Shown piece after piece: positions 31,498 through 48,859 of a stretch of 57,476 bases of DNA (positions are counted from its first letter, which is position 1; each line of letters starts with the position of its first letter). The position numbers and the translations under genes were made by a program. Origin of the DNA: a virus (Duplodnaviria; Caudoviricetes); IMG/VR virus record IMGVR_UViG_3300024325_000004, positions 1 to 57,476 of that record; one strand, 5' to 3'. Under the pieces are notes generated by a model. The model was not told the DNA's origin. It was given only the letters and a program-made list of their open reading frames with translations, and searched no databases.

Positions 31498-34022
31498 TGG
31501 TTGAACTTTCCGCAGTTTGGGAACAGGTAAAGTACCTGCTTTCCGAAAATATTAGTCTCATACCTGTCCGCGACAAACCGGAAACTGATAAAAATGGTCG
31601 GAAATATGAGGCTAAATCTGCCTACCCATGGGCTGCTCAGCAAAAGAAAAAATATACCGAAGCTCAGCTTTGGAAACAAATGGAATACCGGGATACAACC
31701 GCCATTGCGATTGTTTGCGGAGAAGTTTCGGGTAATCTGGAAATAATAGATATCGACGTTAAATATAAACCAGGTATTGACGCCCTCCTGTTTAAAAGTA
31801 TCCAAAGCCTGTATCCCAATCTTTACGATAAACTACGGATACATAAAAGTCCGTCTGGCGGTTATCACATACTTTATAAGATACACAACCACGAAGTGCC
31901 GGGAAGTACCAAACTTGCCGGGCGAAAAACAACTAATGAAGAACAGGAAGCCAGAATTGCAGCAGGTCACAAGAAATCAAACAAAGAAGCAAATTTTATA
32001 GAAACCAGAGGTGAAGCAGGCTATGCTTTGGCTCCCCCTTCAATGGGGTATAGTATCCATAAAGACAATCCAATACCCACATTTACATGGGATGAGCGAA
32101 ATTCTTTGATCACTTTGTGCAAAAGTTATACGGAGATCATAAAAGTAATACCACCGGCTAAACCACCACGCAGCCAGGAGGACCAATATGATACCAACCC
32201 GTTTGAGGATTATAACTGCCGGATTGATCCCTACGAATTACTAACTGAATATGGATGGTCTGAGGTTCGGGAGGACCATCAATTCATATGGTTCACACGG
32301 CCCGGTAAAGATGTAGGAGTTTCCGCCAGCTGGAACAAGGAAAAAGAAATATTTTATGTGTTTACCTCATCAACCGAATTTGAGCCTGAGAAAGGCTATC
32401 ACCCGGCCACGATCCTTGCACTATTGAAATTTGACGGGGATAAAAAGAAAACGTATAAATACCTCACTGACAACGGCTATGGTATATTTAAACCGTTTTA
32501 TGAAGAAAAAAAGATCAAACGAGAAGTGATCAACAAAGGCGAAATGCCGGCCAATATATCTGACGAGGGAAAACAGAGATTTGAAACCTTAAAAACAGAA
32601 TATGAAAAAAACCTGCCTCACGGTAGGTTCTGGTCCTACAACAAAGACCGCTTCGATATCAGCCGGGAAGAACTATACCATGTAGCACATGAGCTTGGTT
32701 ACCGCCTTTATAATCGTACACAGATCACCCGGATAGAAAGTAACCTGATACATAAGCACACCGACAAAGAGTTTTACAATGGTCTTAAAACATATATCTG
32801 GGATACTGACAAAAAAATCTATACACAAATCTGTAATGCATTCGAGGCATTCATTCAGAAATCAGGCACTTTTACGATAAGCAGACTAAAAGATATTGAC
32901 AAAAAAGAGATCCTGCAGGACGACCAAAACACTGCCTATAAGTATTTCTCAAATGGCATCTTAAAGATAACCGAAAAACGTACCGAATTGCTGCCATACA
33001 CCGCTGTCACAGGCTTATTATGGTCACACAAGATATATGACCGCCCCTGGACAGAAAAACGTGTTAAAAGCGTTTATTTGACATTCCTTGAAAATGCCGT
33101 CGGCATCACCCCCTATCTGAAACGAATAATTGGTTACCTGGCCCACGATCATAAATCTGAGTCCGCCGGTTACCTGATCGTTCTGACTGAAAAGACGGTT
33201 GACCCGAAAGACGGCGGCGGATCCGGTAAGAACATTTTTGGTAACATTCTGTCTGGCACCATATCCGTAAAAACGGTGCCTGGTTCATCTATAAAGTTTG
33301 ATGATAAGTTCCTTGCGGCGTGGAACTATGAGAGGCTTTATTTTCTGGCGGACATACCGAAAAAAATTGACTGGCTTTTTTTGAAAGAGATGGTAACGGG
33401 CACCGGCTATGTCAATAAGAAATACGTTGCAGAGTTTGATGTGCCTGCCGAGGAAATGCCGAAACTACTATTGAACACTAATTATTCGTATGATGACGTG
33501 GATGGCGGGCTGAAGCGCCGGATCCGGCAGGTGGAGTTCACTGACTTCTACACAACCCGTGGCGGAGTAGATACGGTTCATGGGAAAATGTTTCCCACTG
33601 ACTTTACTGAAGATGACTGGACCGGCTACGATCAGTTCATAGTAGAAAGCCTGCAGGAGCTTTTCAAGGCAAAAGGCAAGATTGAGCAGGTAGCCCTATC
33701 AGATGAAGGCTGGACGAAAAAGTTCAACATGAAGCACCATGAAAGTATGTACGAGTTCATCACCGACCATATTGAGGAATGGTGTAAAGAAGGTTTTGCA
33801 TCGAACGGCTGGATAGTAGAGCAGTACAATGAGTTTTGCCGGGTAAATACCGTAAATCCCCGGTATAAAAAAGAGCTGGCCTCGATCACTACGGCCATAA
33901 AAGAGTTTTGCCTGCATCACGGGATCAGTTATGAGAACAACCATGCAGGCCGCTCCGACTGGAATAACGGTGAGGTAGGAAAAGGAAAAAAATTCGGACC
34001 ATATACATTAGACATATTATGA
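31497..34022 (+). CDS. Bifunctional primase-polymerase / SF3-type helicase
   Basis: IIDID and SPSGGYH prim-pol motifs, ETRGEAGY; GGSGKN Walker A; LLNTNY. Confidence 0.9.
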   Translation: MVELSAVWEQVKYLLSENISLIPVRDKPETDKNGRKYEAKSAYPWAAQQKKKYTEAQLWKQMEYRDTTAIAIVCGEVSGNLEIIDIDVKYKPGIDALLFKSIQSLYPNLYDKLRIHKSPSGGYHILYKIHNHEVPGSTKLAGRKTTNEEQEARIAAGHKKSNKEANFIETRGEAGYALAPPSMGYSIHKDNPIPTFTWDERNSLITLCKSYTEIIKVIPPAKPPRSQEDQYDTNPFEDYNCRIDPYELLTEYGWSEVREDHQFIWFTRPGKDVGVSASWNKEKEIFYVFTSSTEFEPEKGYHPATILALLKFDGDKKKTYKYLTDNGYGIFKPFYEEKKIKREVINKGEMPANISDEGKQRFETLKTEYEKNLPHGRFWSYNKDRFDISREELYHVAHELGYRLYNRTQITRIESNLIHKHTDKEFYNGLKTYIWDTDKKIYTQICNAFEAFIQKSGTFTISRLKDIDKKEILQDDQNTAYKYFSNGILKITEKRTELLPYTAVTGLLWSHKIYDRPWTEKRVKSVYLTFLENAVGITPYLKRIIGYLAHDHKSESAGYLIVLTEKTVDPKDGGGSGKNIFGNILSGTISVKTVPGSSIKFDDKFLAAWNYERLYFLADIPKKIDWLFLKEMVTGTGYVNKKYVAEFDVPAEEMPKLLLNTNYSYDDVDGGLKRRIRQVEFTDFYTTRGGVDTVHGKMFPTDFTEDDWTGYDQFIVESLQELFKAKGKIEQVALSDEGWTKKFNMKHHESMYEFITDHIEEWCKEGFASNGWIVEQYNEFCRVNTVNPRYKKELASITTAIKEFCLHHGISYENNHAGRSDWNNGEVGKGKKFGPYTLDIL

Positions 34023-34219
34023 AAAGTAAAGAAGAGTTGGCAGAAAAATTTTTAGAAGCAATGCTTCACAACTACAATGGGAAAGATCACCCTGAAGTTT
34101 TAGCTTTTGTGGCGTTTGACATTGCGGAGGCTTTTATTGAGCAAGCCGATATTCGAAGAACACCGCGTAAGCCACCAACTATATCAGAGGATAAATTATT
34201 TTTAATAAAAAACTTGTAA
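34019..34219 (+). CDS. Hypothetical protein
   Basis: ATGA-coupled to the primase gene. Confidence 0.55.
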   Translation: MKSKEELAEKFLEAMLHNYNGKDHPEVLAFVAFDIAEAFIEQADIRRTPRKPPTISEDKLFLIKNL

Positions 34220-34236
34220 ATATTAAAAATAAGTTT

Positions 34237-34244
34237 TATATTTG
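34237..34244 (+). promoter_or_regulatory. Bacteroidota -7 promoter element (TATATTTG)
   Basis: TAnnTTTG with TTG about 20 nt upstream; precedes the early small-gene cluster. Confidence 0.55.
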
Positions 34245-34286
34245 TTATGTATTAGTAATGTATCTGATATTAAAAGCTTGACGGCA

Positions 34287-35461: not shown

Positions 35462-35565
35462 AAAGTAAAAAATGAGAGTATTTTTAATAGCTATTGCAGT
35501 GATCATCTTAACTCCGGTTATGATTGCAGGACTGATGATAGCCAGTGTATTTTTCGTAGGTTGTG

Positions 35566-35616
35566 ATGACCGAGGAACAAATCTGGCCGTTATTTGAAGC
35601 AAAGGATATATTATGA
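35566..35616 (+). CDS. Micro-ORF MTEEQIWPLFEAKDIL (16 aa) or remnant 3' end of a gene
   Basis: Ends GAT ATA TTA TGA, overlapping the next ATG at 35613. Confidence 0.35.
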   Translation: MTEEQIWPLFEAKDIL

Positions 35617-35907: not shown

Positions 35908-36453
35908 ATGATCATTTTCCAGGAACATACCCAAACAGGTTATGCCATGCGTACCTGGGATAACGCCCGGCTCAGTGATTTGACAGTAGCAATAGCTAAT
36001 GACTTCTCCACTTCAGGTGAACTACTTACGCGAAAAGCTGCATACGGCAAGTACCTGGGTATCGAGTTTGACCTGTTGCTTACTGATATTAACAAAGCAG
36101 CGTCAACCATTTTAAAGGAGATGGAAAAGCGAAAAGTACGGGTTTTAAATATTGCAGGTAACGGGATTTACATCTTAAAACATCTTTGTGACCAGGCGTT
36201 TGTTGATGATCGTTTATTGCTGCTTTTTACGATAACCGTTCTGAACTACGGAAATGATTTTGATATTCGCACAGGGGGTCAAACAGGAATTGATGAAGCT
36301 ACTCTTAAAGCAGGAGATTTTCTAAACATGCCGACAACTTGTCTCGCGCCGAAGAACTGGATGTTCAGAAATGAGCAAGGACAGGATATCTGTTCTGATA
36401 GTTTGTTTTTGAAACGTTTTGGAGAGAAATATGATGTAACTGATATATTATGA
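35908..36453 (+). CDS. SLOG-superfamily (cpYpsA/MoCo-carrier-like) protein
   Basis: RTWDNARLSDLT, LNIAGNG and TGGQTGIDEA motifs. Confidence 0.7.
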   Translation: MIIFQEHTQTGYAMRTWDNARLSDLTVAIANDFSTSGELLTRKAAYGKYLGIEFDLLLTDINKAASTILKEMEKRKVRVLNIAGNGIYILKHLCDQAFVDDRLLLLFTITVLNYGNDFDIRTGGQTGIDEATLKAGDFLNMPTTCLAPKNWMFRNEQGQDICSDSLFLKRFGEKYDVTDIL

Positions 36454-36869
36454 AAAATAGAGACGGTTCAGAGCCTAATGACCACTGGGCAACTCCGAAA
36501 TGGTTATATGATCAATTAAACGAAGAATTTAAATTTGATTTCGACCCGTGTCCTTTACATGCTAATTTTGACGGTTTAACCATTGAATGGGGAAGATCTA
36601 ATTTTATAAACCCTCCTTATAACAGGGTAGACAAGCCAAAATTTATTCAGAAAGCCTTTGAAGAATGTTTAAAAGGAAAGGTGTGTGTGATGTTAATCCC
36701 TGTTTCTACAAGTACAAAACAGTTTCACGAAGTAATTTTACCAAACGCCGAAATAAGATTTTTAAAAGGCAGAGTCGCTTTTTCAGGGTATAACGACAAA
36801 GGAGTATACACTGATAAGAATAAAGGAAAGCACGATAGTATGATTGTTATTTTTAATAACATACTATAA
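36450..36869 (+). CDS. Phage DNA N6-adenine methyltransferase
   Basis: WATPKWLY...FDFDPC...INPPY...RFLKGRVAF. Confidence 0.85.
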   Translation: MKNRDGSEPNDHWATPKWLYDQLNEEFKFDFDPCPLHANFDGLTIEWGRSNFINPPYNRVDKPKFIQKAFEECLKGKVCVMLIPVSTSTKQFHEVILPNAEIRFLKGRVAFSGYNDKGVYTDKNKGKHDSMIVIFNNIL

Positions 36870-37138
36870 TGGCTGAAAAACAAATTGAGCAGCGGTTCAG
36901 GCTGGCGGTCAAGTCTAGTGGCGGTCTTTCACTTAAACTGACAACGCCCGGATTTACTGGAATCCCCGACAGACTTAATTTACTGCCCGGAGGACGATTA
37001 TTCTTTGCGGAGTTCAAATACGGTAAGGGAAAGCTCAGCGTTCGCCAGGAAGCGGTTATTCGTGTGCTGAGAGGGCTTGGTTTTGAGGTTTGGATTATTA
37101 ATCAAGATAATATAGATGAATATATTGAGAAATTATGA
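36869..37138 (+). CDS. VRR-NUC nuclease
   Basis: EKQIEQ...GIPDRL...FAEFK...LSVRQ. Confidence 0.88.
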   Translation: MAEKQIEQRFRLAVKSSGGLSLKLTTPGFTGIPDRLNLLPGGRLFFAEFKYGKGKLSVRQEAVIRVLRGLGFEVWIINQDNIDEYIEKL

Positions 37139-38640
37139 TAAAAGTAGGAACATTCTGCACAGGAATCGGTTCACCTGAATTTGCACTAGAAGAAACTGAG
37201 CATGAATTAACTTTTGCCTGTGAGATAGATAAGTTCGCAAGAGCCTCATTTTTATCCAGGTTTAAACCTAAATTGATGTTTCAGGATATGACAAAAATTG
37301 ACTGGAATAATCCTGCTTTATCAACTAATATAGTGATAGCGGGCTTACCTTGTCAGGCGTTCAGTATAGCAGGCAAAAGATTAGGTGAGCAGGATAAACG
37401 TGGTATTTTAATATACGATTTTTATAGATATTTAAAAGTGCATCAGCCGGAAATCTTTATACTAGAAAATGTAAAAGGGCTTAAAAGCATTAATAAAGGT
37501 GAAATATTTTTAAACTGGCAACGGATACTTGGCAGGTCGGTTAATGGAAAAGTTATTGATGATCCACATCCTGAGACTTTAGGGTACAATCTGCACTGGA
37601 AAGTATTGAACACAAAAAATTTTGATCTGCCACAAAACAGAGAGAGAATATTTATTGTCGGGGTTCGTTCTGATATTCCTAATATTTATGAATTTCCGGA
37701 AAATCGTATCCTTAAATTAAGGCTAAGAGATATGTTAGAAGAAAACGTACATGAGAAGTATTATCTAAGTGAACAGTTGATTTCAAGTTTTTTAAAACAC
37801 GCTGACAGGCATAATGAAAAAGGAACAGGTTTTGCATGTAAGCCAAAAACCGAAGATGATATTGCAAATTGTATCCGGGCAAATGCAGCTTTATGCCCAA
37901 CGGATAATATTTTAATTGAAAAATTAATTCCTTTTGGTAATTCTCAGGACCAGAAATTATCGCCTCTTGACGGGATAGCACAAACTTTATCTGTAGGCCA
38001 TTTTAACCAGCCTAAAATATTGGTAAAAACCGCTACAAAACAAGGTTATGAGGCAGCAGCAGGCGATAGCATTAATTTCTCGCAACCAAATTCAGAAACA
38101 CGAAGGGGGCGTGTAGGCCATCAAATTGCTAATACTTTAGATACCGCCTGTAATCAGGCAATTGTTTTAGAGGTTGTTGCTAACACTGACTCGGTTAATG
38201 AAATGCGTGGTCGTGTTTACGGAGATCATGGTTTATCCCCTACAATTACCGCAAAGCAAGGAGGCGGCCACGAACCATTAATTGCAGTCAAACAACTCAA
38301 CCCATCAAAAGAATCAGGAGGTCAACAGTCCTATAAACAAAATAGAGTTTTTGATGGAGATCAGTTATCCCCGGCTTTAGATACTGAATGTGGACGTCCT
38401 TCATATACTGTTAAAAATCGCATCCGTCGATTAACTCCTTTAGAGTGCTGGCGTTTACAAGGTTTTTCAGATGAATATTTTTACCAGGCGAAGCATGAAT
38501 CTAAAGTTGAAGGCAAGAAAAATAGGGGTATGAGTAACACTCAGCTTTACAAACAGGCAGGTAACTCAATCAGCAATACAGTGGTTAAAGCAGTGTTACA
38601 ACCTGCAATAATGTTAATTGAAAGCCTGGATATATTATGA
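37135..38640 (+). CDS. dcm: DNA cytosine-C5 methyltransferase
   Basis: FCTGIG, PCQAFS, ENVKG, PQNRER, RRLTPLECWRLQGF and QAGNS motifs. Confidence 0.93.
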   Translation: MIKVGTFCTGIGSPEFALEETEHELTFACEIDKFARASFLSRFKPKLMFQDMTKIDWNNPALSTNIVIAGLPCQAFSIAGKRLGEQDKRGILIYDFYRYLKVHQPEIFILENVKGLKSINKGEIFLNWQRILGRSVNGKVIDDPHPETLGYNLHWKVLNTKNFDLPQNRERIFIVGVRSDIPNIYEFPENRILKLRLRDMLEENVHEKYYLSEQLISSFLKHADRHNEKGTGFACKPKTEDDIANCIRANAALCPTDNILIEKLIPFGNSQDQKLSPLDGIAQTLSVGHFNQPKILVKTATKQGYEAAAGDSINFSQPNSETRRGRVGHQIANTLDTACNQAIVLEVVANTDSVNEMRGRVYGDHGLSPTITAKQGGGHEPLIAVKQLNPSKESGGQQSYKQNRVFDGDQLSPALDTECGRPSYTVKNRIRRLTPLECWRLQGFSDEYFYQAKHESKVEGKKNRGMSNTQLYKQAGNSISNTVVKAVLQPAIMLIESLDIL

Positions 38641-38711
38641 GCATCAATACCTGTATACCGGATACCATCGTTCATTTGTTTGAACCTTTATTGTGGGAGG
38701 ATATTCTTTGA
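38637..38711 (+). CDS. Micro-ORF MSINTCIPDTIVHLFEPLLWEDIL (24 aa)
   Basis: ATG overlaps the dcm stop (ATGA); its TGA overlaps the in-frame TTG of the SNF2 gene. Confidence 0.5.
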   Translation: MSINTCIPDTIVHLFEPLLWEDIL

Positions 38712-40054
38712 TCTACAAACCTCATCATTATCAAGATAATGGTACAAAGCACCTTTTAGATAATACCCATGCTGCCCTCTTTGCCCAGATGGGGCTCGGG
38801 AAGTCGATTATGACGTTAACCGCCTTAGAGTGGCTTTTAGGTACTTTAGCAATTGACAAACCATTGATTATTGGTCCAAAACGTGTTGTATCGCATACCT
38901 GGCCTTCGGAAATCCGGAAATGGTCACATACACAGCACCTTAAAATATCCGTGATCCAGGGGACTGAAAAGCAGCGATTACAAGCGCTGTATACGAAAGC
39001 CGATATCTATGCTGTCAGTAGAGATAATATTGCCAAGCTGGTGCATTTTATAGGTAAAAACAAGGGTAAATGGCCGTTTGATACTTTAGTGATCGATGAA
39101 TCAAGTAATTTTAAGAACTCATCGACGCAAAGATACAAAGCTGTCAAACGGATACTGCCTTACTGCAGGCGCGTGATCTTACTAACTGGTACCCCATCAC
39201 CGAACTCTTTATTAGGTTTATGGGCACAAATATTTTTATTGGATGCCGGTAAAAGGTTAGGCCACACATTCGGGGGGTTTAAAGAAAATTACTTTATACC
39301 AGGCTCTCGGCAGGGGCCCATTATTTTCAATTGGATACCGAAGAAAATCGCAGAGCAGCAAATCTATGATCAAATATCTGATTTGTGCTTGAGTATGCAA
39401 TCCGCTGATTACCTTGAACTGCCGCCGCGAATTGATATTTATGAAGAAGTGGAGTTAAAGTCCTATGAACGATATAAGGAGTTCAAAGATACCGAAGTGC
39501 TTCAGCTTAGTAATGACTTCAACCTTACACCGGTTAACTCTGCGGCGATGTATTCTAAATTATTGCAGTACTGTAACGGCGCTGTTTATCGCGGGGACGG
39601 ATCTTATGAAGTGGTCGATGATTCGAAACTGGAAGCATTGGCCGAAGATGTAGAGTCACTGGATGGTGATCCTGTATTTATTGCATATATGTTCCAGAGT
39701 GACTTTGAGCGTATGCAGAAAGCAATTCCTGGAATTAGAAAAGTAAGTACTGATGCTGAAATTGATGAGTGGAATGCGGGTAAAATACCGGTAGCATGTG
39801 CACAGATACAATCTTTGGCTTACGGTATCAATCTGCAGGAAGGGGGAAATCATTTATATATGTTCGGGCTATCATGGGACCTGGAAGTCGTGCTTCAGAT
39901 GCTTGCGAGGATCGACAGGCAGGGAAAAACCAAACCGACTATCGTAAAATACTTCGTGGCTAAGAACAGCATTGAACAGGTAGTGATCGAACGATTAGCC
40001 GGGAAACTGGACACGCAGGAAAAATTAATGAACGCTTTAAAACGATATTTATGA
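38708..40054 (+). CDS. SNF2-family helicase
   Basis: MGLGKS, IDESS, LTGTP, GINLQ and RIDRQG motifs; probable TTG start at 38708. Confidence 0.92.
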   Translation: MIYKPHHYQDNGTKHLLDNTHAALFAQMGLGKSIMTLTALEWLLGTLAIDKPLIIGPKRVVSHTWPSEIRKWSHTQHLKISVIQGTEKQRLQALYTKADIYAVSRDNIAKLVHFIGKNKGKWPFDTLVIDESSNFKNSSTQRYKAVKRILPYCRRVILLTGTPSPNSLLGLWAQIFLLDAGKRLGHTFGGFKENYFIPGSRQGPIIFNWIPKKIAEQQIYDQISDLCLSMQSADYLELPPRIDIYEEVELKSYERYKEFKDTEVLQLSNDFNLTPVNSAAMYSKLLQYCNGAVYRGDGSYEVVDDSKLEALAEDVESLDGDPVFIAYMFQSDFERMQKAIPGIRKVSTDAEIDEWNAGKIPVACAQIQSLAYGINLQEGGNHLYMFGLSWDLEVVLQMLARIDRQGKTKPTIVKYFVAKNSIEQVVIERLAGKLDTQEKLMNALKRYL

Positions 40055-40851: not shown

Positions 40852-43032
40852 TTATTTCATGTAGTAATCCCCTATGAAGCCATCTGCCCGTACTGGCCAC
40901 CAGGAAGCCCAGTCAGGTAACTGCAGCATGATCTTTTTTACCTCCTCCAACGTAATACCCAGGCTTTTTAATACCTCAGCCACAAATTCATCGTGTACCG
41001 TAAGCACAACTGGATACCCGGCTTTTTCTACGTTTATAATAGAGTGCATCAGCAGATCGCGGCAAGCTGCCTGGACCAGATTTTCAAAGAATTTCGGCCC
41101 GTATGTCTCAATTACTTTCCAGATACCGTCCATACCCCAGAAACACACCGTCTCACGTTTACCGGGTTTCGGCTTTTCATAGGTTAGGCCAAATTCCTTC
41201 AGGTATTCATTAAAGCCGCTTGTATCATACGCAAGTCCGGCTTTTTTAAGGTACCATAAGTATTCTTCAAGAGTATCTTTCTGTACCTTGCCGATCTTTA
41301 CAGCTATGAATTTTACAAACGGATTGTTTTCTTCGTCAAAATGAATTTTCGGTACAATCTTACTGTTTACGGTGTGAACGTCCGGCACTTTGGCGATATA
41401 AAACTTCTGTAAAAATGCTTTTTGATAAACAAGGCAGCGGCCTGATGGTAGTTTCATTAACAGGTTGCCGTTTTTCATACCGAAAGCCACGCCGTTTTTC
41501 ACAGGTACCAATTGTCCTGTGTTGATAGCCAGCTTTGCGGCCGCGTCCATATCCCACCACATTTGTACGATAGCAGGATTAGCTTTTCGCCAGGTCTTGA
41601 CAAGTCCCGGAATTTCTTCTACTGGTATACGTTTCTTCGGATCCTCAATGGTATCATTGTTCCGTTCCATAGCGGCTGAACCGCCGCCATACTGGAAAAG
41701 CAGCTCTGACACCTTCGATTTTTGCCGATCTTCTTTAGTAATTTGCTCAATGGGCTTATGAAACATCATAGCACTGGAAGCTTTATAGATATCACCGCCC
41801 TGTTTGAAAAAATCAATACGCCATTGTTCTCCTGCTAAACAAGCACTTGCCAGCGATTCAATCGATGAGAAATCCAATACAATAAACTCTTTACCAGGCG
41901 TCGCGATAAATGTTGGCCGCAGTAATTGGGACAGGATGTTTGATAAATTCGGAAAAACCATGTGCAGGCTTTCAGTATCCCGCAGCCGGACCAGTTCACG
42001 GGTATCATCCAGCAGTTTTGCAAAGTCCTCATCGATACGCGGGAAATTTTGCGGTTGTGGGCCTCTGCCGGCTTCTCTGCCAGTACGGTTTGCACCGTAG
42101 TATTGTATCGTGCCCCGGACACGTAAATCCTCACACGCGCCATATTTTAAAGCCAGGTACTTCGTAATGCTGGACTTTGACATAAGCTGTCTGATCTGAA
42201 GAATACGGCGTACCGCAGGATCTTCTTCATCGATCAGCATTTGCCGTACAGCAAGTTTATTTAAGGTAGTGACTTCTTCCTCCATTTCAGTCGATAGCCA
42301 TTCTTTTAGTTGCTTAGGCGAATTGACATTGGATAGACCTGATAGCTCTGTAGCTTCTTCGATCAGTTCTTCCCGGAACTCTTTATTAATAATGATAGCC
42401 GAATCGATCAGCGACATATCTACCATTACCCCGCGTTCATTCTTACGTTCGTTCAGGCACCAGATATGATGCTCTACAGCAGGGATTTTATACCACTGGC
42501 AGGCTTTATCAACTTCCTGTTCAACTACAACATCCTGACCGTTGTACGATTTGAACTGCTCCCATTTCTCCGGATCATGTTCGGGCAGGTTACGGGCGCG
42601 CATACCGTTAGCGACAGTTGGTTTACAGGGAACGCAGAAATATCGGATAAGTGATTTACCAATCGGGTCCTTTTTCTCAATCAGGCCAAGGGCTTTGCTG
42701 GCGTCATCCAGGCTGAGGGGCAGTCCGCACATGGCAGCGCGGGCTTGAGTGCATTCCCACTGTTCAGGAGGTGAGTAAATACCCAGAGTGATGTTCAGGT
42801 AATTCCGTTCATATGGGGCATTGAAAGCTTTCTTTATATAATCCGGGTCAGTCAGTGCCGATAACAACCAGGTCGGTATCTTCTCTTTAGTAAGATCAAG
42901 TACTACAACAGGGGCATAATCTAATGAGTAAGCAAGCAGAATGATCTCACCGGAATCAGCACGTTTATATACACCGTACTTAATGTCAACCGGGCTGAAA
43001 TCTTCAATATCAAGGGATAGGATGTATTTCAT
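40852..43032 (-). CDS. polA: Family A DNA polymerase (APSE/SPO2-type)
   Basis: DIE exonuclease motif, TGREAGR, QNFP, DFSSIE, RQKSK...YG, ENLVQA and VHDE. Confidence 0.93.
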   Translation of the reverse strand: MKYILSLDIEDFSPVDIKYGVYKRADSGEIILLAYSLDYAPVVVLDLTKEKIPTWLLSALTDPDYIKKAFNAPYERNYLNITLGIYSPPEQWECTQARAAMCGLPLSLDDASKALGLIEKKDPIGKSLIRYFCVPCKPTVANGMRARNLPEHDPEKWEQFKSYNGQDVVVEQEVDKACQWYKIPAVEHHIWCLNERKNERGVMVDMSLIDSAIIINKEFREELIEEATELSGLSNVNSPKQLKEWLSTEMEEEVTTLNKLAVRQMLIDEEDPAVRRILQIRQLMSKSSITKYLALKYGACEDLRVRGTIQYYGANRTGREAGRGPQPQNFPRIDEDFAKLLDDTRELVRLRDTESLHMVFPNLSNILSQLLRPTFIATPGKEFIVLDFSSIESLASACLAGEQWRIDFFKQGGDIYKASSAMMFHKPIEQITKEDRQKSKVSELLFQYGGGSAAMERNNDTIEDPKKRIPVEEIPGLVKTWRKANPAIVQMWWDMDAAAKLAINTGQLVPVKNGVAFGMKNGNLLMKLPSGRCLVYQKAFLQKFYIAKVPDVHTVNSKIVPKIHFDEENNPFVKFIAVKIGKVQKDTLEEYLWYLKKAGLAYDTSGFNEYLKEFGLTYEKPKPGKRETVCFWGMDGIWKVIETYGPKFFENLVQAACRDLLMHSIINVEKAGYPVVLTVHDEFVAEVLKSLGITLEEVKKIMLQLPDWASWWPVRADGFIGDYYMK

Positions 43033-43778
43033 AGAATCGATTTACAGAAATTATCAAATTGGCTTTCGTGTATAAAAAGCTTCTCAGTAGATTCTTTTGC
43101 GGGTCTATTATACATACCATTTTGAGATAATGTCCCTTTAAGCTTTCCCTCCCAAATACTAATGAAATCATCCGGCGCCTGATATTCGGAAATGAAAATT
43201 TGATTCGTAAGACTTTTCTTCCGACAAAAATTCCAAAAATTAGTGTGGTCAAATTTAATCCGATATCCAGTTGTCCCTTTATATGGCGGGTCACAGTAGA
43301 TAACAGAGTTTTCAGGAATTGGTACCTGATCGTAAGAGAGAGAGTAGAATTTTACGTTTTCTAATTTATGGATCTGATTGAGAACATTGTTCTTGGCTTC
43401 TAATTGATAATTTCTTTGAACACCGGTATCAGGAGTATGAATACCCGCAAAGCCAGAAAAAGGCTTACCTGAAAAGCTACAACAGAAACATGCAAACCCC
43501 ACTAACTCATCGGGAAAAAAGTCCTGGTTTTCCCAAATTTCATAATATTGTTCCCGGTTTATATAATCCGGTGGGGACCAACCATTCTGAAGGGCTTTCC
43601 ATAAAGCTATTAGTGGCTTGTTAACATCATTAGCAATACGTAAAGGATGATTTATTTTATCAATTAAATTACAACCGCCACAAAATAACTCTACATAATA
43701 TTGCTCAGGCGTTAGAGTTTCAGTAATAATAGGAATGATATGTTTAGCGATTCTACGCTTTGAACCCATGTATTTCAT
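43029..43778 (-). CDS. Dam-like (D12 class) adenine methyltransferase
   Basis: True start MKYMGSKRRIA at an ATGA overlap; ELFCGG and IYCDPPY motifs. Confidence 0.88.
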   Translation of the reverse strand: MKYMGSKRRIAKHIIPIITETLTPEQYYVELFCGGCNLIDKINHPLRIANDVNKPLIALWKALQNGWSPPDYINREQYYEIWENQDFFPDELVGFACFCCSFSGKPFSGFAGIHTPDTGVQRNYQLEAKNNVLNQIHKLENVKFYSLSYDQVPIPENSVIYCDPPYKGTTGYRIKFDHTNFWNFCRKKSLTNQIFISEYQAPDDFISIWEGKLKGTLSQNGMYNRPAKESTEKLFIHESQFDNFCKSIL

Positions 43779-43879
43779 TTGGCGAGATATATTAAGGTAA
43801 GAAACACTACCGCGCCTACAATTAGAATAATCAGTAGAATCCATTCATGTTTCGGGTTCGGTTCTTCAAGTTCCATCAT
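43775..43879 (-). CDS. Small single-pass membrane protein (34 aa)
   Basis: MMELEEPNPKHEWILLIILIVGAVVFLTLIYLAK; ATGA-coupled on both sides. Confidence 0.55.
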   Translation of the reverse strand: MMELEEPNPKHEWILLIILIVGAVVFLTLIYLAK

Positions 43880-44040
43880 AATATATCCCCCGCTTGTATC
43901 TCATCAATTTGCCGGTCAATCTCGGCTAATCCTGCCCTAAGCATGATCATCAATCCCCAGAAGTGCGCGTCATTCATAGCATCTAATGCTTTGATCTGTG
44001 CTTGGTAAATAAGCTTTTGTGATTTTAATTGCTCTATCAT
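43876..44040 (-). CDS. Small helical protein (54 aa) ending AGDIL
   Basis: MIEQLKSQKL...EIQAGDIL; TACCTTTG immediately upstream. Confidence 0.65.
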   Translation of the reverse strand: MIEQLKSQKLIYQAQIKALDAMNDAHFWGLMIMLRAGLAEIDRQIDEIQAGDIL

Positions 44041-44109: not shown

Positions 44110-44307
44110 ATGGCACAAAAACAAAAATCGAGATTTTCTGTCACGGTAACATGGCCGCTTCCGATGATCCAATTCGTGCAGGGAAAAGTTTATGATGAAA
44201 AGAAAATCAAAATTTCTCAACTGACCGAAATCGCCATGGAGCAATGGCTTAAAGAGAACGGCTATTGGAATGAATACCAGGCGACTTTGGCAGGAGATAT
44301 ATTATAA
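44110..44307 (+). CDS. Small RHH-like protein ending AGDIL
   Basis: Beta-strand followed by two helices (FSVTVTWP...KISQLTEIAMEQWL). Confidence 0.6.
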   Translation: MAQKQKSRFSVTVTWPLPMIQFVQGKVYDEKKIKISQLTEIAMEQWLKENGYWNEYQATLAGDIL

Positions 44308-45231: not shown

Positions 45232-45258
45232 AAATTAAAAACTGTTAAACTGATTAAA

Positions 45259-46410
45259 ATGTCAAAACACGCAATTTTATCCCCATCGGCAGCGAGCCGG
45301 TGGCTGACATGTACACCGTCTGCCAGACTGGAACAGGAGTTCCCAAATACTTCTTCCTCTTATGCTGATGAAGGCACCCTGGCACACGCTGTGGGTGAAT
45401 GTATCCTGCGCCAGCTTGCAGGCATGATCACCTCAGCTGAGGCAGAAACGATCATGGCTGTTCATATGAACAACCAGTACTATAATAAAGAACTGCATGA
45501 TTATGCCGAAGGGTATGCCTATTTCGTTTGGAACCAGTGCAAACCAGGCAAGACAGAATTGTTCATCGAAACGCGCCTGGATATGACCGAATGGATCGAG
45601 GATGGTTTCGGAACCGCTGATGCCATCATAATCGGCGACCGGGTACTGATCTTTGATGACCTGAAATACGGTAAAGGCGTTCCGGTTTCCGCGATGGACA
45701 ATTCACAACTGATGATCTACTCATTAGGGGCCTATGAAATGTTCAAAGAGATTTTTGAGATTGATAAAATCCAGATGAACATATACCAGCCACGTATCGA
45801 TAACATATCATCCTGGGAAATTTCTGTTGCTGAGCTTTTAGAATGGGCCGAGAAAGACCTGAAGCCAAAAGCGGCTTTAGCTTATGCCGGCGAAGGTGAA
45901 TTTGCGCCAGGTAAAGCCTGCTTGTTCTGCAGGGCTAAGGCAACTTGCAGAGCTCTGCATGATTACAATATGGAGTTAGCTACGCTGGAATTTAAAAATC
46001 CCGACTTATTAACTGATGAAGAAATCGCAAAAGTGCTAAGCCGTTCAGATGATTTTACCAAGTGGATTGGATCAGTAGAGAGCTATGCATTGGCAACAGC
46101 TGTTTCCGGTGAAAAAACATGGCCGGGATATAAGATAGTAGAAGGACGTAGCAATCGCAAGTACAATAGTGAGGTTATTGTCGCGACTAAGCTTGAAATG
46201 GCTGGTTATACAGACATTTATAAGCCGAAAGCACTGCTTGGTATCACTGAGATGGAAAAGAAGATTACGAAGCCCATATTCGCGGAAATTGTTGAACCGC
46301 TTCTGATCAAGCCACCGGGTGCACCTACACTTGTAAAAGAGACCGACAAAAGACAACCGTTCAGCGTTGCTACAGGAGAGTTCAAAGTAATTGCAGACGA
46401 GGATATTTAA
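45259..46410 (+). CDS. DUF2800 Cas4-like PD-(D/E)XK nuclease
   Basis: HAILSPSAASRWLTC, EGTLAH, GFGTAD, DLKYGKG and CLFCRAKATC motifs. Confidence 0.9.
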   Translation: MSKHAILSPSAASRWLTCTPSARLEQEFPNTSSSYADEGTLAHAVGECILRQLAGMITSAEAETIMAVHMNNQYYNKELHDYAEGYAYFVWNQCKPGKTELFIETRLDMTEWIEDGFGTADAIIIGDRVLIFDDLKYGKGVPVSAMDNSQLMIYSLGAYEMFKEIFEIDKIQMNIYQPRIDNISSWEISVAELLEWAEKDLKPKAALAYAGEGEFAPGKACLFCRAKATCRALHDYNMELATLEFKNPDLLTDEEIAKVLSRSDDFTKWIGSVESYALATAVSGEKTWPGYKIVEGRSNRKYNSEVIVATKLEMAGYTDIYKPKALLGITEMEKKITKPIFAEIVEPLLIKPPGAPTLVKETDKRQPFSVATGEFKVIADEDI

Positions 46411-46411
46411 T

Positions 46412-46513
46412 ATGGAAACGACCTTACATGTTCTTTGTGGCATTATCATAGGGTTATTGATTGCAATTGTTGTAGGCGTTTTTGTTATATACAAAGAAAT
46501 TAAGAAAAAATGA
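46412..46513 (+). CDS. Small membrane protein (33 aa)
   Basis: One hydrophobic helix plus a basic tail; ATGA-coupled to thyX. Confidence 0.5.
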   Translation: METTLHVLCGIIIGLLIAIVVGVFVIYKEIKKK

Positions 46514-47169: not shown

Positions 47170-47380
47170 TATAAATCCTGATCACTATAAAGCTGGAAAG
47201 GTTGAGTGTATTGACGCTTTAGAAGCCGCTACAGTTAATAAAACAGGTATCGAGGCTGTATGCACTGCTAATGTTATCAAATATCTTTGGCGTTACGAAG
47301 CAAAAGCTAAACTGGAAGATGTGAAGAAAGCTCAATGGTATTTAAACAGGCTAATTAATCATTTAGAAAATGCAGTGTGA
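47156..47380 (+). CDS. DUF3310 family protein
   Basis: NPDHY...ECID...NVIKYLWRY...EDVKKAQWYL. Confidence 0.85.
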   Translation: MSKDNINPDHYKAGKVECIDALEAATVNKTGIEAVCTANVIKYLWRYEAKAKLEDVKKAQWYLNRLINHLENAV

Positions 47381-47660
47381 ACTTTGTAACCAGGAAAATC
47401 CGGTAAGCTGTGATCATGGCAAGAACGGTTATTGTCTTTTATTCAACCAGCAGGCCGAAAAAGATAAAAGCATGTTTGGTCCGAAGAATATGAAAACATT
47501 GGCTGACTTGGAAATAGGTGAAACGTTCCGATATAAAAACTCTGATCCAGATGATTGGCATACTGTTTCAGGTAAAGATGAGGCGAAGATTTATTACTCA
47601 GGTGGAAATACTGAACAAAGTAATTTCAGAGTTGAAAACGTTGAGGTAATCGTAAAATGA
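47370..47660 (+). CDS. Hypothetical protein
   Basis: N-terminal Cys cluster; coupled ORF. Confidence 0.55.
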   Translation: MQCELCNQENPVSCDHGKNGYCLLFNQQAEKDKSMFGPKNMKTLADLEIGETFRYKNSDPDDWHTVSGKDEAKIYYSGGNTEQSNFRVENVEVIVK

Positions 47661-48301
47661 AAAAATATCTTTTTTGTGATACCGAGACTACAGGTTTGCC
47701 GGTTACATATACTGCGCCATTTACTGACACAGATAATTATCCTCGTATCATAGAACTTGCCTGGGAATTATGTTGGGAGAACGGCGAAACCATTGAGAAA
47801 GCTTGTGACCTTATCTATCCCGATGGCTGGCGTTTTCCAACCGGTGACTTCTGGAAGGAACATGGCTTTACCGAGGATGAAAGTTTGCTGAATGGTATTG
47901 ACCCGATCATTGCTTTTACACAATTTGCTATAGCAATGAATTGCGCAGATGTGATGATCTGTCATAACCTGAGTTATGACAAGCCGATTATCGAATGCGA
48001 ACTTTTTCGCTATAAGATATACCCGAAAGCTGTTCGGAGACAATTAGTAGCAAATGGAATTAAAATAAAACATGGATTAAGGCCTGAAGGCGTTCCTTTA
48101 CAAAAAGAATGCACCAAGCTTCTTAGCACACCGATATTGAAACTGCCAGGCTTTAAAGGTGAGTACAGCTGGCCAAAACTGGAAGTAGCTTATGAATATG
48201 CTTTCGGTGAGAAAATGTCCGGCGCTCATCATGCTTCAACAGACGTTGAGGCAACTAAAAAATTATACCTTTGGATTAAATCTTTAAGTGATATATTGTA
48301 A
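47657..48301 (+). CDS. DEDDh 3'-5' exonuclease
   Basis: DTETTG, HNLSYD and AHHASTDV motifs. Confidence 0.9.
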   Translation: MKKYLFCDTETTGLPVTYTAPFTDTDNYPRIIELAWELCWENGETIEKACDLIYPDGWRFPTGDFWKEHGFTEDESLLNGIDPIIAFTQFAIAMNCADVMICHNLSYDKPIIECELFRYKIYPKAVRRQLVANGIKIKHGLRPEGVPLQKECTKLLSTPILKLPGFKGEYSWPKLEVAYEYAFGEKMSGAHHASTDVEATKKLYLWIKSLSDIL

Positions 48302-48319
48302 ACAATTAAATTGAGTAAA

Positions 48320-48859
48320 ATGAACACAGAGACAAAAGTGTCAACACCTGAGCTTGTACGGTTCAGCTATGTAAATTTGGTTGAGCCTAAATTGGCTCCC
48401 GGCGCGACTGAACCTAAGTATGGTATGAGCGTAATCATACCTAAGTCGGCAAAGAAAACAATTAAGGCAATTAAAGCTGCTATTGAAGCGGCAATTGAAG
48501 TAGGTACCGAAAAATTCGGTAAAAGCTTCAAAGCTAAAAAGCTTCCTCTACGGGACGGTGATGAGGAACGCGAAGATGCTGCATATGCGGATTCTTTCTT
48601 CCTGAATGCAAATGCTAAAAATCGTCCAGGTATGGTTGATCGCAAGGTACAGGCAATCCTTGATCCATCTGAGATCAAATCAGGCGATTGGGGAAACGTG
48701 AGCCTGAACTTCTATCCATTTAACGTCAACGGTAACAGCGGTGTAGCTGTGGGCTTAAATCACGTCCAGAAGGTAAAAGACGGCGAACCTCTTGGGTCGG
48801 TTACCAATGCTGCCGATGAGTTTGATGAAATCGAATTTGAAGACGATGATATCATGTAG
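48320..48859 (+). CDS. ssb: DUF2815 single-stranded DNA-binding protein
   Basis: RFSYVNL, PLRDGD and GVAVGLNHVQKVKDGEPLG motifs; acidic tail EFEDDDIM. The TTG at 48311 is an alternative start. Confidence 0.88.
   Translation: MNTETKVSTPELVRFSYVNLVEPKLAPGATEPKYGMSVIIPKSAKKTIKAIKAAIEAAIEVGTEKFGKSFKAKKLPLRDGDEEREDAAYADSFFLNANAKNRPGMVDRKVQAILDPSEIKSGDWGNVSLNFYPFNVNGNSGVAVGLNHVQKVKDGEPLGSVTNAADEFDEIEFEDDDIM

What the first reader, a model, noticed from the sequence alone, without database searches (positions are those of the whole stretch)
34011..48859. Shared C-terminal Asp-Ile-Leu-stop tag on unrelated early/replication proteins, mimicking the phage SSB tail
Seen: eight ORFs end in exactly DIL*. 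They are the primase-helicase (stop 34022), micro-ORF 35566-35616, the SLOG protein (36453), the C5 MTase (38640), micro-ORF 38637-38711, the 54-aa minus-strand ORF (43876), the RHH-like ORF (44307) and the DEDDh exonuclease (48301). Near variants end the SSB (DDDIM*), DUF2800 nuclease (DEDI*), N4/N6 MTase (YDVI*), N6 MTase (NNIL*) and Dam-like MTase (KSIL*). I saw no such ending in structural, lysis or glycosyltransferase genes. Codons vary synonymously (GAT/GAC; ATA/ATT; TTA/TTG/CTT; TGA/TAA), and two copies have no overlapping downstream start, which points to selection on the peptide. Established: bacterial SSB C-terminal tails (E. coli DDDIPF) are docking motifs, and free C-termini can act as degrons. 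Inference: a genome-wide address tag that recruits horizontally acquired DNA enzymes to one hub or times their proteolysis. PolA and SNF2 lack the tag and are candidate receptors.
Basis: partly seen in the sequence, partly recalled or inferred. Interest (0 to 1): 0.9.

Follow-up and report, generated by a model that had tools for sequence, protein, structure and literature searches.

The report
Shared DIL tail on phage replication proteins
In this phage and its close relatives, about ten unrelated early and DNA-replication proteins end in the same three residues as the phage's own single-strand-binding protein, which most likely marks them for docking to one partner, though no binding has been tested.

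Summary
Eight stop-to-stop frames end in DIL at the stated coordinates. Five of 84 called genes do so, against about 0.03 expected. Two of the eight are not independent: the micro-ORFs are the leftover 3' ends of a decayed HNH gene and of a replaced C5 methylase gene.

Four copies are the identical 12-mer GATATATTATGA. That uniformity follows mostly from the overlapping ATG start, the A preferred at -3, and codon bias.

Related sequences favour selection on the peptide:
- Two complete sister phages carry DIL on 5-6 proteins each, and in one the SSB itself ends DDIL.
- The Leu codon changes with the overlapping start (TTA/ATGA, CTG/GTGA, CTT/TTGA) while Leu is kept.
- Amino-acid changes are rare in the tail codons (2 of 54 versus 41 of 234). 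Synonymous changes are not.
- SSBs of this clade end DIM, DIL or DII.
- 62 of 122 representatives of the primase-helicase family end in the bacterial SSB-tip-like PF, and here the tail is DIL.

The receptor is unknown and no binding was shown. This is a new variant of the T7 gp4/gp2.5 shared-tail principle.

The parts
31497..34022 (+). Prim-Pol/helicase (841 aa) ending ...GPYTLDIL. Its stop TGA overlaps the ATG of the next ORF.
   Evidence: Pfam Prim-Pol. DIL is kept in the 77%-identical G001 protein. The AF2 model has coil for the last 8 residues, with the last pLDDT value 61. 62 of 122 family representatives end in PF.
35563..35616 (+). Remnant (17 codons, ...WPLFEAKDIL) of an HNH endonuclease gene. 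It carries an exact GATATATTATGA whose ATG starts the ORF 35613-35780.
   Evidence: The homologous ORF is 51 aa in G004 and 112 aa in G005. The G005 protein matches Pfam HNH.
35908..36453 (+). cpYpsA SLOG protein (181 aa) ending ...KYDVTDIL.
   Evidence: Pfam PF12694. DIL is conserved in G004 and G005 although the downstream genes differ.
36450..36869 (+). Dam-family N6 MTase (139 aa) with the near-variant tail NNIL.
   Evidence: Pfam PF05869; tail read.
37135..38640 (+). C5 cytosine MTase (501 aa) ending ...ESLDIL.
   Evidence: Pfam PF00145. Only 3 of the 120 best homologues end DIL (this protein and the 86%- and 73%-identical ones). The 46-61%-identical ones end [ED]VI, and 16 of 120 end IL.
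38637..38711 (+). Remnant (24 codons, ...HLFEPLLWEDIL) of a different, G004-type C5 MTase. Its TGA overlaps a TTG at 38708 that is in frame with the SNF2 gene.
   Evidence: The G004 340-aa C5 MTase ends with the same peptide. W-G004 homology starts at 38661, and W-G005 homology starts exactly at the 12-mer at 38629.
38693..40054 (+). SNF2-family helicase without the tag (ends ALKRYL). It is conserved in all relatives and is a candidate receptor.
   Evidence: Pfam SNF2-rel_dom; tails.
40051..40851 (+). N4/N6 MTase (266 aa) with the near-variant tail YDVI.
   Evidence: Pfam PF01555. The G005 counterpart (258 aa, same Pfam family) ends NMYDIL with a TAG stop.
40852..43032 (-). Family A DNA polymerase without the tag (ends GDYYMK). 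It is a candidate receptor by analogy with T7 gp5.
   Evidence: Pfam DNA_pol_A. It is conserved in 49 related loci.
43029..43844 (-). D12-class N6 MTase with the near-variant tail KSIL.
   Evidence: Pfam PF02086. The G005 orthologue ends NTIL.
43876..44040 (-). 54-aa protein of unknown family ending ...IQAGDIL.
   Evidence: It is conserved as a 56-aa protein in G004 (ENSDIL) and G005 (ESEDIL). G005 encodes the tail as GAT ATC CTG TGA, overlapping a GTG start. No Pfam hit.
44110..44307 (+). 65-aa protein ending ...ATLAGDIL, with a TAA stop and no overlapping start.
   Evidence: It is conserved in G004 (CTA TAA) and G005 (TTA TGA). No Pfam hit.
45259..46410 (+). DUF2800 PD-(D/E)XK nuclease with the near-variant tail ADEDI.
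   Evidence: Pfam PF10926. In related loci this family usually carries DF near its end, like the local SSB tail.
47657..48301 (+). DnaQ-like 3'-5' exonuclease (214 aa) ending ...SLSDIL, with a TTG Leu codon, a TAA stop and no overlapping start.
   Evidence: Invariant D8, E10, D108, H191 and D196. 44 of the 50 best homologues end [DNSEQG][ILMV][LMI]. In the AF2 model the tail is the end of helix 193-213.
48311..48859 (+). Enc34/T7 gp2.5-type SSB ending ...EFEDDDIM. This is the reference tail.
   Evidence: Pfam PF10991. G005 SSB ends EEDDIL. Clade tails are DIM, DIL and DII.

Best explanation
D-I-L at the free C-terminus (more loosely [DNSE]-[ILV]-[LMI]) is a short peptide motif under selection in this phage lineage. 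It is the same tip as the tail of the lineage's own T7 gp2.5-type SSB.

Inference: the tip works as bacterial SSB tips and the T7 gp2.5 and gp4 tails do. A terminal hydrophobic pair with the free carboxylate, preceded by an acidic or polar residue, docks into a pocket on one receptor. Proteins that carry it (primase-helicase, SSB, DnaQ-like exonuclease, SLOG protein, DNA methylases, an HNH nuclease and two small proteins) would then be brought to, or compete for, the same site at the replication fork. The family A polymerase is my first guess for the receptor. SNF2 and the SSB groove are the alternatives.

Shown: enrichment, restriction to the early/replication block, conservation of the peptide with codon turnover, and identity with the SSB tip.

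Inferred: docking, the identity of the receptor, and the purpose of recruiting methylases and small proteins.

The near-identical 12-mer is a by-product. It is what DIL looks like when the stop overlaps the next ATG (TTA TGA), with the A preferred at -3 (ATA) and the commoner GAT.
For: 1. Enrichment. DIL ends 5 of 84, 5 of 85 and 6 of 88 called genes in the window, G004 and G005. About 0.03 is expected in each. The looser motif ends 9/26, 6/29 and 7/34 genes of the replication block, against 1/58, 0/56 and 1/54 elsewhere.

2. Link to SSB. G005 SSB ends EEDDIL, encoded GAC ATT CTT TAA with no downstream overlap. Of the 45 best SSB homologues, 15 end DIM, 9 DIL, 4 DII and 2 NIM. More distant ones mostly end DDFL[SDAG].

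3. Peptide rather than DNA. Across the window, G004 and G005, Leu is encoded by TTA, TTG, CTT, CTA and CTG, and it tracks the overlapping start: ATGA, GTGA, TTGA or none. Codon pairs with an amino-acid change number 2 of 54 in the last three codons and 41 of 234 in the preceding 13 (Fisher p = 0.0097). Synonymous differences number 10 of 54 and 52 of 234 (p = 0.71).

4. The tail travels with the upstream protein. For the SLOG, 54-aa and HNH families it is kept although the downstream gene differs between the three phages.

5. Primase-helicase. 62 of 122 full-length representatives end in PF, typically [DE][DE]x[ILVA]PF, and 82 of 122 end in F. The window and G001 members end DIL. In L002/L003 the primase-helicase ends DDGFPF and the phage SSB ends DDDLPF.

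6. Covariation. In 14 exonuclease-SSB pairs, 24 of 42 tail positions are identical against 19.1 under permutation (p = 0.023). L052 has DDLLD on both SSB and DUF2800. L054 has DFLD on both SSB and a 798-aa protein.

7. Precedent, from passages read. T7 helicase C-tails contact basic patches of the polymerase, and removing them cuts processivity threefold (PMC8472574). The gp2.5 tail anchors to the polymerase front basic patch, and a DTDF peptide stands in for the gp4 tail in 6P7E (PMC12339929). The Enc34 SSB has a disordered acidic tail, and the gp2.5 tail is implicated in polymerase and primase-helicase contacts (PMC5686142).

8. Accessibility. The last 8 residues of the primase-helicase model are coil with falling confidence.
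Against: - No binding was shown by any method. The only complex prediction gave no verdict (see Tried and rejected).
- Only SSB has the acidic run typical of SSB tails. The others have just D-I-L, preceded by L, T, G, S, K, N or Y.
- In the exonuclease model, DIL is the end of the last helix and continues its hydrophobic stripe. In C5 methylases a hydrophobic C-terminal helix ending IL is common in the family (16 of 120). In these two proteins the IL may therefore be structural, with only the D lineage-specific.
- Nucleotide uniformity is somewhat higher than my rough model predicts. All seven independent ATGA-type families use ATA, whereas A at -3 occurs in roughly 46-72% of starts.
- The orthologue tests use non-independent pairs from only three or four genomes. 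The covariation test is weak (p = 0.02) and its pairing rests on equal contig lengths.
- Outside this lineage there is no general excess of [DE]-hydrophobic-hydrophobic ends: 47 of 1196 proteins (3.9%) against 3.5% of internal 5-mers.
- It is not obvious why methylases, an HNH nuclease or a small regulator-like protein should sit at a replisome.
Confidence: 0.55

Rival explanations
1. The selected object is the DNA or RNA string GATATATT(A/G)T(G/A)A at gene junctions. It would be a translation-coupling or initiation context for the next gene, or a microhomology boundary at which early-gene cassettes are exchanged. DIL would then be only its in-frame read-out.
For: - There are four exact 12-mers in 57 kb, with no match to the reversed control pattern. 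G004 has three more and G005 four more.
- The internal ATG starts the next ORF in 5 of 8 cases.
- Seven of eight tails use ATA against a 33% genomic share.
- Homology blocks between the three phages end or begin at the motif (35617, 36455, 38629, 44311).
- Three different genes occupy the slot before SNF2, and each ends in the motif.
- The remnants of dead genes keep the motif.
Against: - All copies are in frame at ORF ends, and none is out of frame or intergenic.
- The generic start context is A-rich. Multiplying the window's position frequencies gives about 2e-4 for GATATATT per start.
- The tail stays with the upstream protein when the downstream gene differs.
- Tails without any overlapping start keep DIL: the exonuclease, the 65-aa ORF, the G005 MTase with a TAG stop, and the G005 SSB.
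- Synonymous turnover in the tail codons is as high as upstream, while amino-acid change is suppressed.
- Across the wider exonuclease and SSB clades the peptide class is kept (DIL, NIL, DLM, ELL, DIM, DII), which cannot be one nucleotide string.
- Breakpoints at gene ends are expected in any mosaic phage.
Confidence: 0.15
2. The tail is a peptide signal, but it is a C-terminal degron or stability signal that times the removal of early proteins. It is not a docking motif for the replisome.
For: - The motif sits at the free C-terminus and ends in hydrophobic residues.
- It is restricted to early genes, including small regulator-like proteins and methylases whose activity might need to be transient.
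- It is established, from recall and not from any call here, that non-polar C-termini can be read by bacterial proteases.
Against: - The same tip ends the SSB, which is needed in bulk throughout replication, and the primase-helicase.
- In related families the corresponding position carries the classical SSB tip (PF, DFLS), whose known role is protein docking (PMC5686142 passages; PMC5872125 abstract in the search listing).
- No phage protease or adaptor was seen in the proteins I scanned, but I scanned only about 30 of roughly 85 against Pfam.
Confidence: 0.12
3. There is no common function. Several unrelated proteins simply end in an amphipathic helix whose last turn reads x-I-L, and shared ancestry within one small lineage inflates the count.
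For: - The exonuclease tail is helical and continues the hydrophobic stripe.
- C5 methylases often end ...PIL or ...IL (16 of 120).
- Only three or four genomes of the lineage could be read as DNA.
Against: - About 0.03 DIL ends are expected per genome, or 0.2-0.4 even under position-specific C-terminal frequencies. Five or six are observed, in at least ten non-homologous families.
- There are none in about 55 structural, lysis and glycosyltransferase genes per genome.
- The D is lineage-specific in the methylase.
- The primase-helicase tail is coil, and it replaces PF.
- The SSB tail is not helical in the solved family member (PMC5686142 passages).
Confidence: 0.08

Closest known systems
Acidic C-terminal tails of phage T7 gp2.5 (SSB) and gp4 (primase-helicase), which contact gp5 polymerase
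   Same: The setting is the same: a T7 gp2.5-type SSB (Pfam Enc34_ssDNA-bd), a primase-helicase and a family A polymerase in one module. SSB and primase-helicase end in nearly the same tip (DIM and DIL). The role of the T7 tails is taken from passages in PMC8472574 and PMC12339929.
   Different: - The tip here is aliphatic (I-L/M), not a terminal Phe.
- Only SSB has the acidic run.
- The tip is also carried by at least eight further families (exonuclease, SLOG, three kinds of cytosine-methylase-slot proteins, N4/N6 MTase, HNH, two small proteins).
- No binding data exist.
Bacterial SSB C-terminal tip (E. coli DDDIPF) and its many partner proteins
   Same: Both are a short motif at the extreme C-terminus, with a hydrophobic end plus a preceding Asp, used as a shared address (PMC5872125 abstract, seen in the search listing). 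62 of 122 representatives of the window's primase-helicase family copy this PF tip.
   Different: In the bacterial system one protein (SSB) carries the tip and many partners read it. The sequence is a private variant (DIL) that differs from the PF tip, which I recall, but did not check, to be usual for Bacteroidota host SSBs.
Clamp-binding motifs and PIP boxes (many enzymes share one short peptide for a sliding-clamp hub)
   Same: The logic is the same: unrelated DNA enzymes, including a maintenance methylase in eukaryotes, carry one short peptide that brings them to the fork. This is recalled, not from a call.
   Different: The sequences are unrelated. No clamp gene was seen among the window proteins I scanned. 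This is an analogy only.
Repeated regulatory cassettes between early genes of T4-type phages (PeSLs), and lambdoid boundary sequences
   Same: Both involve a repeated short nucleotide string at junctions of shuffled early genes (recalled). Here the 12-mer lies at synteny breakpoints.
   Different: Those elements are intergenic promoter and stem-loop units that do not depend on reading frame. Here every copy is the in-frame end of a protein, and the peptide survives codon changes.

Membership tests
SSB-tip-type C-terminal docking motif | Located at the extreme C-terminus with a free carboxylate | tested here: met
   All copies are followed directly by a stop codon.
SSB-tip-type C-terminal docking motif | Terminal hydrophobic residues preceded by an acidic residue, matching the organism's own SSB tip | tested here: met
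   The tag is D-I-L. SSB ends DDDIM in the window and G004 and EDDIL in G005. Clade SSB tails are DIM 15, DIL 9 and DII 4 of the 45 best hits.
SSB-tip-type C-terminal docking motif | Carried on a flexible or disordered, usually acidic, linker | tested here: inconclusive
   This is met for SSB (acidic run) and roughly for the primase-helicase (coil for the last 8 residues). It is not met for the exonuclease, where the tail ends a helix. The other proteins were not modelled.
SSB-tip-type C-terminal docking motif | Binds a pocket on partner proteins | not testable with these tools
Biochemistry is needed.
T7-type shared tail of SSB and primase-helicase | gp2.5-type SSB, primase-helicase and family A polymerase are all encoded | tested here: met
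   Pfam PF10991, PF09250 and PF00476.
T7-type shared tail of SSB and primase-helicase | SSB and primase-helicase tails resemble each other and change together between lineages | tested here: met
   The window has DIL and DIM. L002/L003 have DDGFPF and DDDLPF. 62 of 122 family representatives end PF. G004 and G005 carry a different 710-712-aa protein ending GLI or DLV, which I did not analyse further.
Nucleotide cassette-boundary or coupling element | The nucleotide string is conserved beyond what the encoded peptide requires | tested here: not met
   Synonymous differences number 10 of 54 codon pairs in the tail and 52 of 234 upstream (p = 0.71). Five Leu codons, three Ile codons and three stop codons are used. 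A residual excess of ATA is noted.
Nucleotide cassette-boundary or coupling element | Occurs independently of the reading frame of the flanking genes | tested here: not met
   Every exact 12-mer in the window, G004 and G005 is an in-frame DIL-stop.
C-terminal degron | The tag shortens protein half-life through a protease or adaptor | not testable with these tools
   No computation is available. Stability assays are needed.

The most novel reading that the evidence does not exclude
This phage lineage has evolved a private 'SSB-tip code'. A three-residue C-terminal address (D-I-L) differs from the PF tip that I recall as usual for bacterial host SSBs. The phage's own SSB, primase-helicase, proofreading-type exonuclease, several DNA methylases, a SLOG protein, an HNH nuclease and small regulators all use it to dock, in turn, on one receptor at the phage replisome. 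This would be a viral counterpart of the PCNA/PIP-box tool belt. Newly acquired genes would gain access to the fork simply by acquiring three codons. The PF-ending primase-helicases of related prophages would be the converse case, plugging into the host's SSB interactome.
Probability: 0.3. Interest if true: 0.8.

Novelty: new variant of a known kind. Interest (0 to 1): 0.62.

Why it matters
If the tail is a docking address, it would show that a phage can wire many accessory DNA enzymes to its replication machinery with a three-residue tag. Methylases that must modify nascent DNA before host restriction sees it would be among them. It would also show that the tag can drift as a lineage-private code together with the SSB tip.

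That would give a simple, testable rule for predicting which phage proteins of unknown function act at the fork. It would also give a handle for pulling down the receptor.

The side observation may matter more widely. Half of a large primase-helicase family ends in a bacterial SSB-tip look-alike, which suggests tip mimicry is widespread in mobile-element replication. I found no paper describing either pattern. My four full-text searches returned T7, E. coli SSB and unrelated phage or plasmid papers, and none reported such tags. That is not proof that the pattern is unpublished.

Tried and rejected
Complex prediction. I ran PolA (726 aa, 35-row alignment) with the last 43 residues of SSB. The verdict was no answer (score 0.00, mark 0.32, controls not run). 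I use it neither for nor against binding.

Generic translation-start context as the full explanation. I rejected this because non-motif starts are A-rich and give GATATATT only about 2e-4 per start (my multiplication of the frequencies). A at -3 does explain the ATA preference.

Promoter or methylation-site readings of the 12-mer. I considered them from recall only and did not pursue them, because every copy is an in-frame gene end.

Search for more lineage genomes.
- The metagenome scan with PolA gave only relatives of at most 45% identity.
- INPHARED holds no phage with an SSB 60% or more identical and no long nucleotide match.
As a substitute I paired exonuclease and SSB proteins by identical longest-contig length. 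That pairing is an inference.

General excess of SSB-like ends in the wider PolA/DUF2800/SSB module. None was found: 47 of 1196 against 3.5% background.

Rows dropped.
- ORFs under 50 aa, and + strand ORFs inside the 3'-open gene at 1-2184, were left out of the window counts.
- One truncated exonuclease (P0150) was left out of the pairing.
- 28 of 150 primase-helicase representatives under 780 aa were left out.

The gene sets are my own greedy ORF calls, not the output of a gene finder. Supplementary files of papers were closed and were not consulted.

Full report
WHAT THE WINDOW IS. The window is a complete 57,476-base virus record. It holds a structural and glycosyltransferase half, and a replication/early block at about 31-50 kb. 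Pfam on selected proteins gave:
- Prim-Pol/helicase (31497-34022);
- cpYpsA SLOG (35908-36453);
- Dam-family MTase (36450-36869);
- C5 MTase (37135-38640);
- SNF2 helicase (38693-40054);
- N4/N6 MTase (40051-40851);
- family A polymerase (40852-43032, minus strand);
- D12 MTase (43029-43844, minus strand);
- DUF2800 nuclease (45259-46410);
- ThyX (46510-47169);
- DUF3310 (47156-47380);
- an Enc34/T7 gp2.5-type SSB (48311-48859).

The exonuclease (47657-48301) has no direct Pfam hit. It has invariant D8, E10, D108, H191 and D196, and its distant homologues carry PF00929. A Bacteroidota host is plausible from three observations. The only nucleotide hits are to Riemerella and Flavobacterium phages. 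Named homologues come from Pedobacter, Arcticibacter and Flavobacterium. Start contexts are A-rich with A at -3 and little G.

THE OBSERVATION. Eight stop-to-stop frames end in DIL at the coordinates given, and the near variants are as stated. With my own greedy ORF set (at least 50 aa), 5 of 84 genes end in DIL. Composition predicts 0.031, the internal tripeptide rate predicts 0.029 (6 DIL in 17,198 internal positions), and independent position-specific C-terminal frequencies predict 0.29. The looser motif [DNSE][ILV][LIMV]-stop ends 9 of 26 genes in the replication block and 1 of 58 elsewhere. So the enrichment and its restriction to early genes are real.

- Four of the eight are the identical 12-mer GATATATTATGA. 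The others are GACATATTATGA, GATATATTATAA, GATATATTGTAA and GATATTCTTTGA.
- Seven of eight use ATA, which is only 33% of Ile codons in long genes.
- In five cases the ATG inside the motif is the start of the next ORF (ATGA overlap).
- In that setting the stop must be TGA and the Leu codon must end in A (TTA or CTA).
- The third base of the Ile codon is position -3 of the next start. In non-motif starts A holds that position in 58-60% (window), 46-50% (G004) and 65-72% (G005).
- With GAT at 69%, I estimate roughly one in three DIL+ATGA junctions would be the exact 12-mer. Four exact copies of five in the window is then unremarkable (my estimate about 0.06).
- Across the lineage all seven independent ATGA-type families use ATA, which is somewhat more uniform than this model predicts.
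- The generic start context cannot create the motif on its own. Multiplying the frequencies gives about 2e-4 per start.

THE MICRO-ORFS ARE REMNANTS. Two complete sister phages were found through the SSB (L004 and L005) and read in full as G004 (55,352 b) and G005 (55,909 b). Both have terminal repeats and a CheckV estimate of 100%.
- The frame 35563-35616 (...WPLFEAKDIL) is the end of a gene that is 51 aa in G004 and 112 aa in G005. The G005 protein is an HNH endonuclease by Pfam.
- The frame 38637-38711 (...HLFEPLLWEDIL) is the end of a 340-aa C5 MTase that is intact in G004.
- In the window a different 501-aa C5 MTase sits in that slot. In G005 an unrelated 215-aa protein does. All three end in DIL.
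- The remnant's TGA overlaps a TTG (38708) that is in frame with SNF2, so the remnant probably still serves translational coupling.

This leaves six real DIL proteins in the window, plus two scars.

PEPTIDE OR DNA? Several lines of evidence favour the peptide.

1. The same tail recurs on orthologues and on further non-homologous proteins in the sister phages.
   - G004: exonuclease, 65-aa ORF, 56-aa ORF, 340-aa C5 MTase, SLOG, 51-aa HNH remnant.
   - G005: HNH, SLOG, 215-aa protein, N4/N6 MTase (TAG stop), 56-aa ORF, 62-aa ORF, and the SSB itself (EEDDIL).
   - That makes at least ten unrelated families. DIL ends 5 of 85 genes in G004 and 6 of 88 in G005.

2. The Leu codon follows whatever start overlaps it, and Leu stays.
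   - TTA goes with ATGA, CTG with GTGA (G005 56-aa ORF into the D12 MTase), and CTT with TTGA (C5 remnant into SNF2).
   - TTG, CTA, TTA or CTT occur with TAA or TAG where nothing overlaps.

3. In ungapped comparisons of the last 16 codons of eight families, codon pairs with an amino-acid change are 2 of 54 in the last three codons. Both are the SSB M/L difference. In the preceding 13 codons they are 41 of 234 (Fisher p = 0.0097). Synonymous differences are 10 of 54 and 52 of 234 (p = 0.71). The pairs are not independent and the genomes are few, so I treat this as supportive, not decisive.

4. The tail stays with the upstream protein when the downstream gene differs between phages, as in the SLOG, 54/56-aa and HNH families. 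This argues against a start-region element owned by the downstream gene.

5. Every exact 12-mer in the three genomes is an in-frame gene end.

THE LINK TO THE SSB TAIL.
- Of the 45 best SSB homologues in the 5.8-billion-protein collection, 15 end DIM, 9 DIL, 4 DII and 2 NIM. More distant homologues mostly end DDFL[SDAG]. D-I-[LMI] is therefore the SSB tip of this clade.
- In 49 loci sharing the PolA/DUF2800/SSB module (38-46% PolA identity), the usual SSB tip is DDFLS. DUF2800 nucleases usually carry DF a few residues from their end.
- Exact matches occur. L052 has DDLLD on both SSB and DUF2800. L054 has DFLD on SSB and on a 798-aa protein.
- The strongest single result concerns the primase-helicase. 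Of 150 listed 50%-cluster representatives, 122 are 780 aa or longer. Of these, 62 end in PF and 82 end in F, typically [DE][DE]x[ILVA]PF, the form of the bacterial SSB tip.
- In L002/L003 the primase-helicase ends DDGFPF, the phage SSB ends DDDLPF, and a 370-aa protein ends PLPF.
- The window and its 77%-identical relative G001 end DIL instead. This protein family habitually copies an SSB tip, and here it copies this lineage's tip.
- Exonuclease homologues of 47-85% identity end [DNSEQG][ILMV][LMI] in 44 of the 50 best hits (DIL 10, NIL 10, SIL 4, DLM 4, ELL 4 and others). Those at 38% identity or less do not.
- I paired exonuclease and SSB proteins by identical longest-contig length (12 pairs, plus the window and G004). 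This gave 24 of 42 identical tail positions against 19.1 under permutation (p = 0.023). The only ELM SSB pairs with an ELL exonuclease, both NIM SSBs pair with NIL, and the only DIM exonuclease pairs with DIM.

CAVEATS FROM STRUCTURE AND FAMILY HISTORY.
- The AF2 model of the exonuclease (pLDDT 94.5) puts DIL at the end of the last helix (193-213). By eye, I213 and L214 continue that helix's hydrophobic stripe.
- Of the 120 best C5 MTase homologues, 16 end IL and 27 end L, on a hydrophobic C-terminal helix (...NLLPIL). Only the window protein and its 86%- and 73%-identical relatives end DIL. The 46-61%-identical ones end TEVI or TDVI.
- In these two proteins the terminal IL may therefore be partly structural.
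- The primase-helicase model (pLDDT 90.8) ends in 8 residues of coil, with confidence falling to 61.
- Outside this lineage there is no general excess of such ends (3.9% against 3.5%). The spread over many proteins is a lineage-specific expansion.

MECHANISM. What is shown is a conserved C-terminal peptide identical to the SSB tip and restricted to early and replication proteins. What is inferred is docking.

The precedent is T7.
- Helicase C-tails contact basic patches on the polymerase, and removing them cuts processivity threefold (PMC8472574, passages).
- The gp2.5 tail anchors to the polymerase front basic patch, and a DTDF peptide represents the gp4 tail in 6P7E (PMC12339929, passages).
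- The Enc34 SSB, the solved member of this SSB family, has a disordered acidic tail. In the crystal that tail lies in a neighbouring molecule's groove (PMC5686142, passages).

I therefore propose that the tails compete for one pocket. PolA is the first candidate. It is conserved, untagged, and plays the role of T7 gp5. SNF2 and the SSB groove are alternatives. The primase-helicase is an unlikely receptor, because G004 and G005 carry a different 710-712-aa protein while the tag system persists.

RIVALS. I put a nucleotide junction or coupling element at about 0.15, a degron at about 0.12, and coincidence of helix ends plus shared ancestry at about 0.08. Their evidence is set out in the Rival explanations section.

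NOVELTY. A shared tail on SSB and primase-helicase is known from T7. The extension to about ten families, including methylases, with a private D-I-L code, is a new variant of that kind. So is the widespread PF tip on a primase-helicase family. I found neither in print in four full-text searches. No cultured phage in INPHARED has an SSB 60% or more identical among 538 matching records.

Noticed in passing
window 31497-34022; proteins P0341-P0490: Of 122 full-length 50%-cluster representatives of this Prim-Pol/helicase family, 62 end in PF and 82 end in F. The typical ending is [DE][DE]x[ILVA]PF, which looks like the bacterial SSB C-terminal tip. This suggests widespread SSB-tip mimicry by primase-helicases of mobile elements.
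   Followed up: partly
L008, L026, L027, L033-L037, L041, L048, L052-L055, L058, L067, L071, L076 (DUF2800 and SSB ORFs): DUF2800 nucleases next to Enc34-type SSBs usually carry a DF 2-5 residues from their C-terminus, echoing the local SSB tail DDFLS. In L052 both proteins end DDLLD.
   Followed up: partly
window 35472-35616: An HNH endonuclease gene is seen at three stages of decay: 112 aa in G005, 51 aa in G004, and 17 codons in the window. The 3' end is always kept. In the window a 41-aa hydrophobic ORF overlaps the scar in another frame.
   Followed up: partly
window 37135-38711; G004 51343-52365; G005 31401-32115: The slot between the 89-aa gene that I read as VRR-NUC-like (no Pfam hit) and SNF2 holds three different genes in three sister phages: a 501-aa C5 MTase, a 340-aa C5 MTase and a 215-aa protein with a PPC motif. 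The window and G005 keep a scar of the 340-aa gene's 3' end.
   Followed up: partly
window 43844-43887 (- strand): After the 54-aa ORF, the ATG inside the 12-mer opens a 9-codon mini-ORF. Its TGA abuts the ATG of the D12 MTase. In G005 the MTase instead starts at a GTG overlapping the stop. This looks like a coupling relay.
   Followed up: no
G005 41054-41569 (L019 region): A 171-aa protein replaces the exonuclease just upstream of the SSB and lacks the tag. By eye it looks like an HNH plus AP2-type homing endonuclease. I did not scan it against Pfam.
   Followed up: no
window 34826-35461: A 211-aa protein contains a run of about 13 CSG/CSD/CRG triplet repeats. It has no Pfam hit.
   Followed up: no
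window 27891-28844: A 317-aa protein with a PAPS-reductase-like domain lies next to the gp3-like small terminase gene and a 509-aa protein that has no Pfam hit.
   Followed up: no
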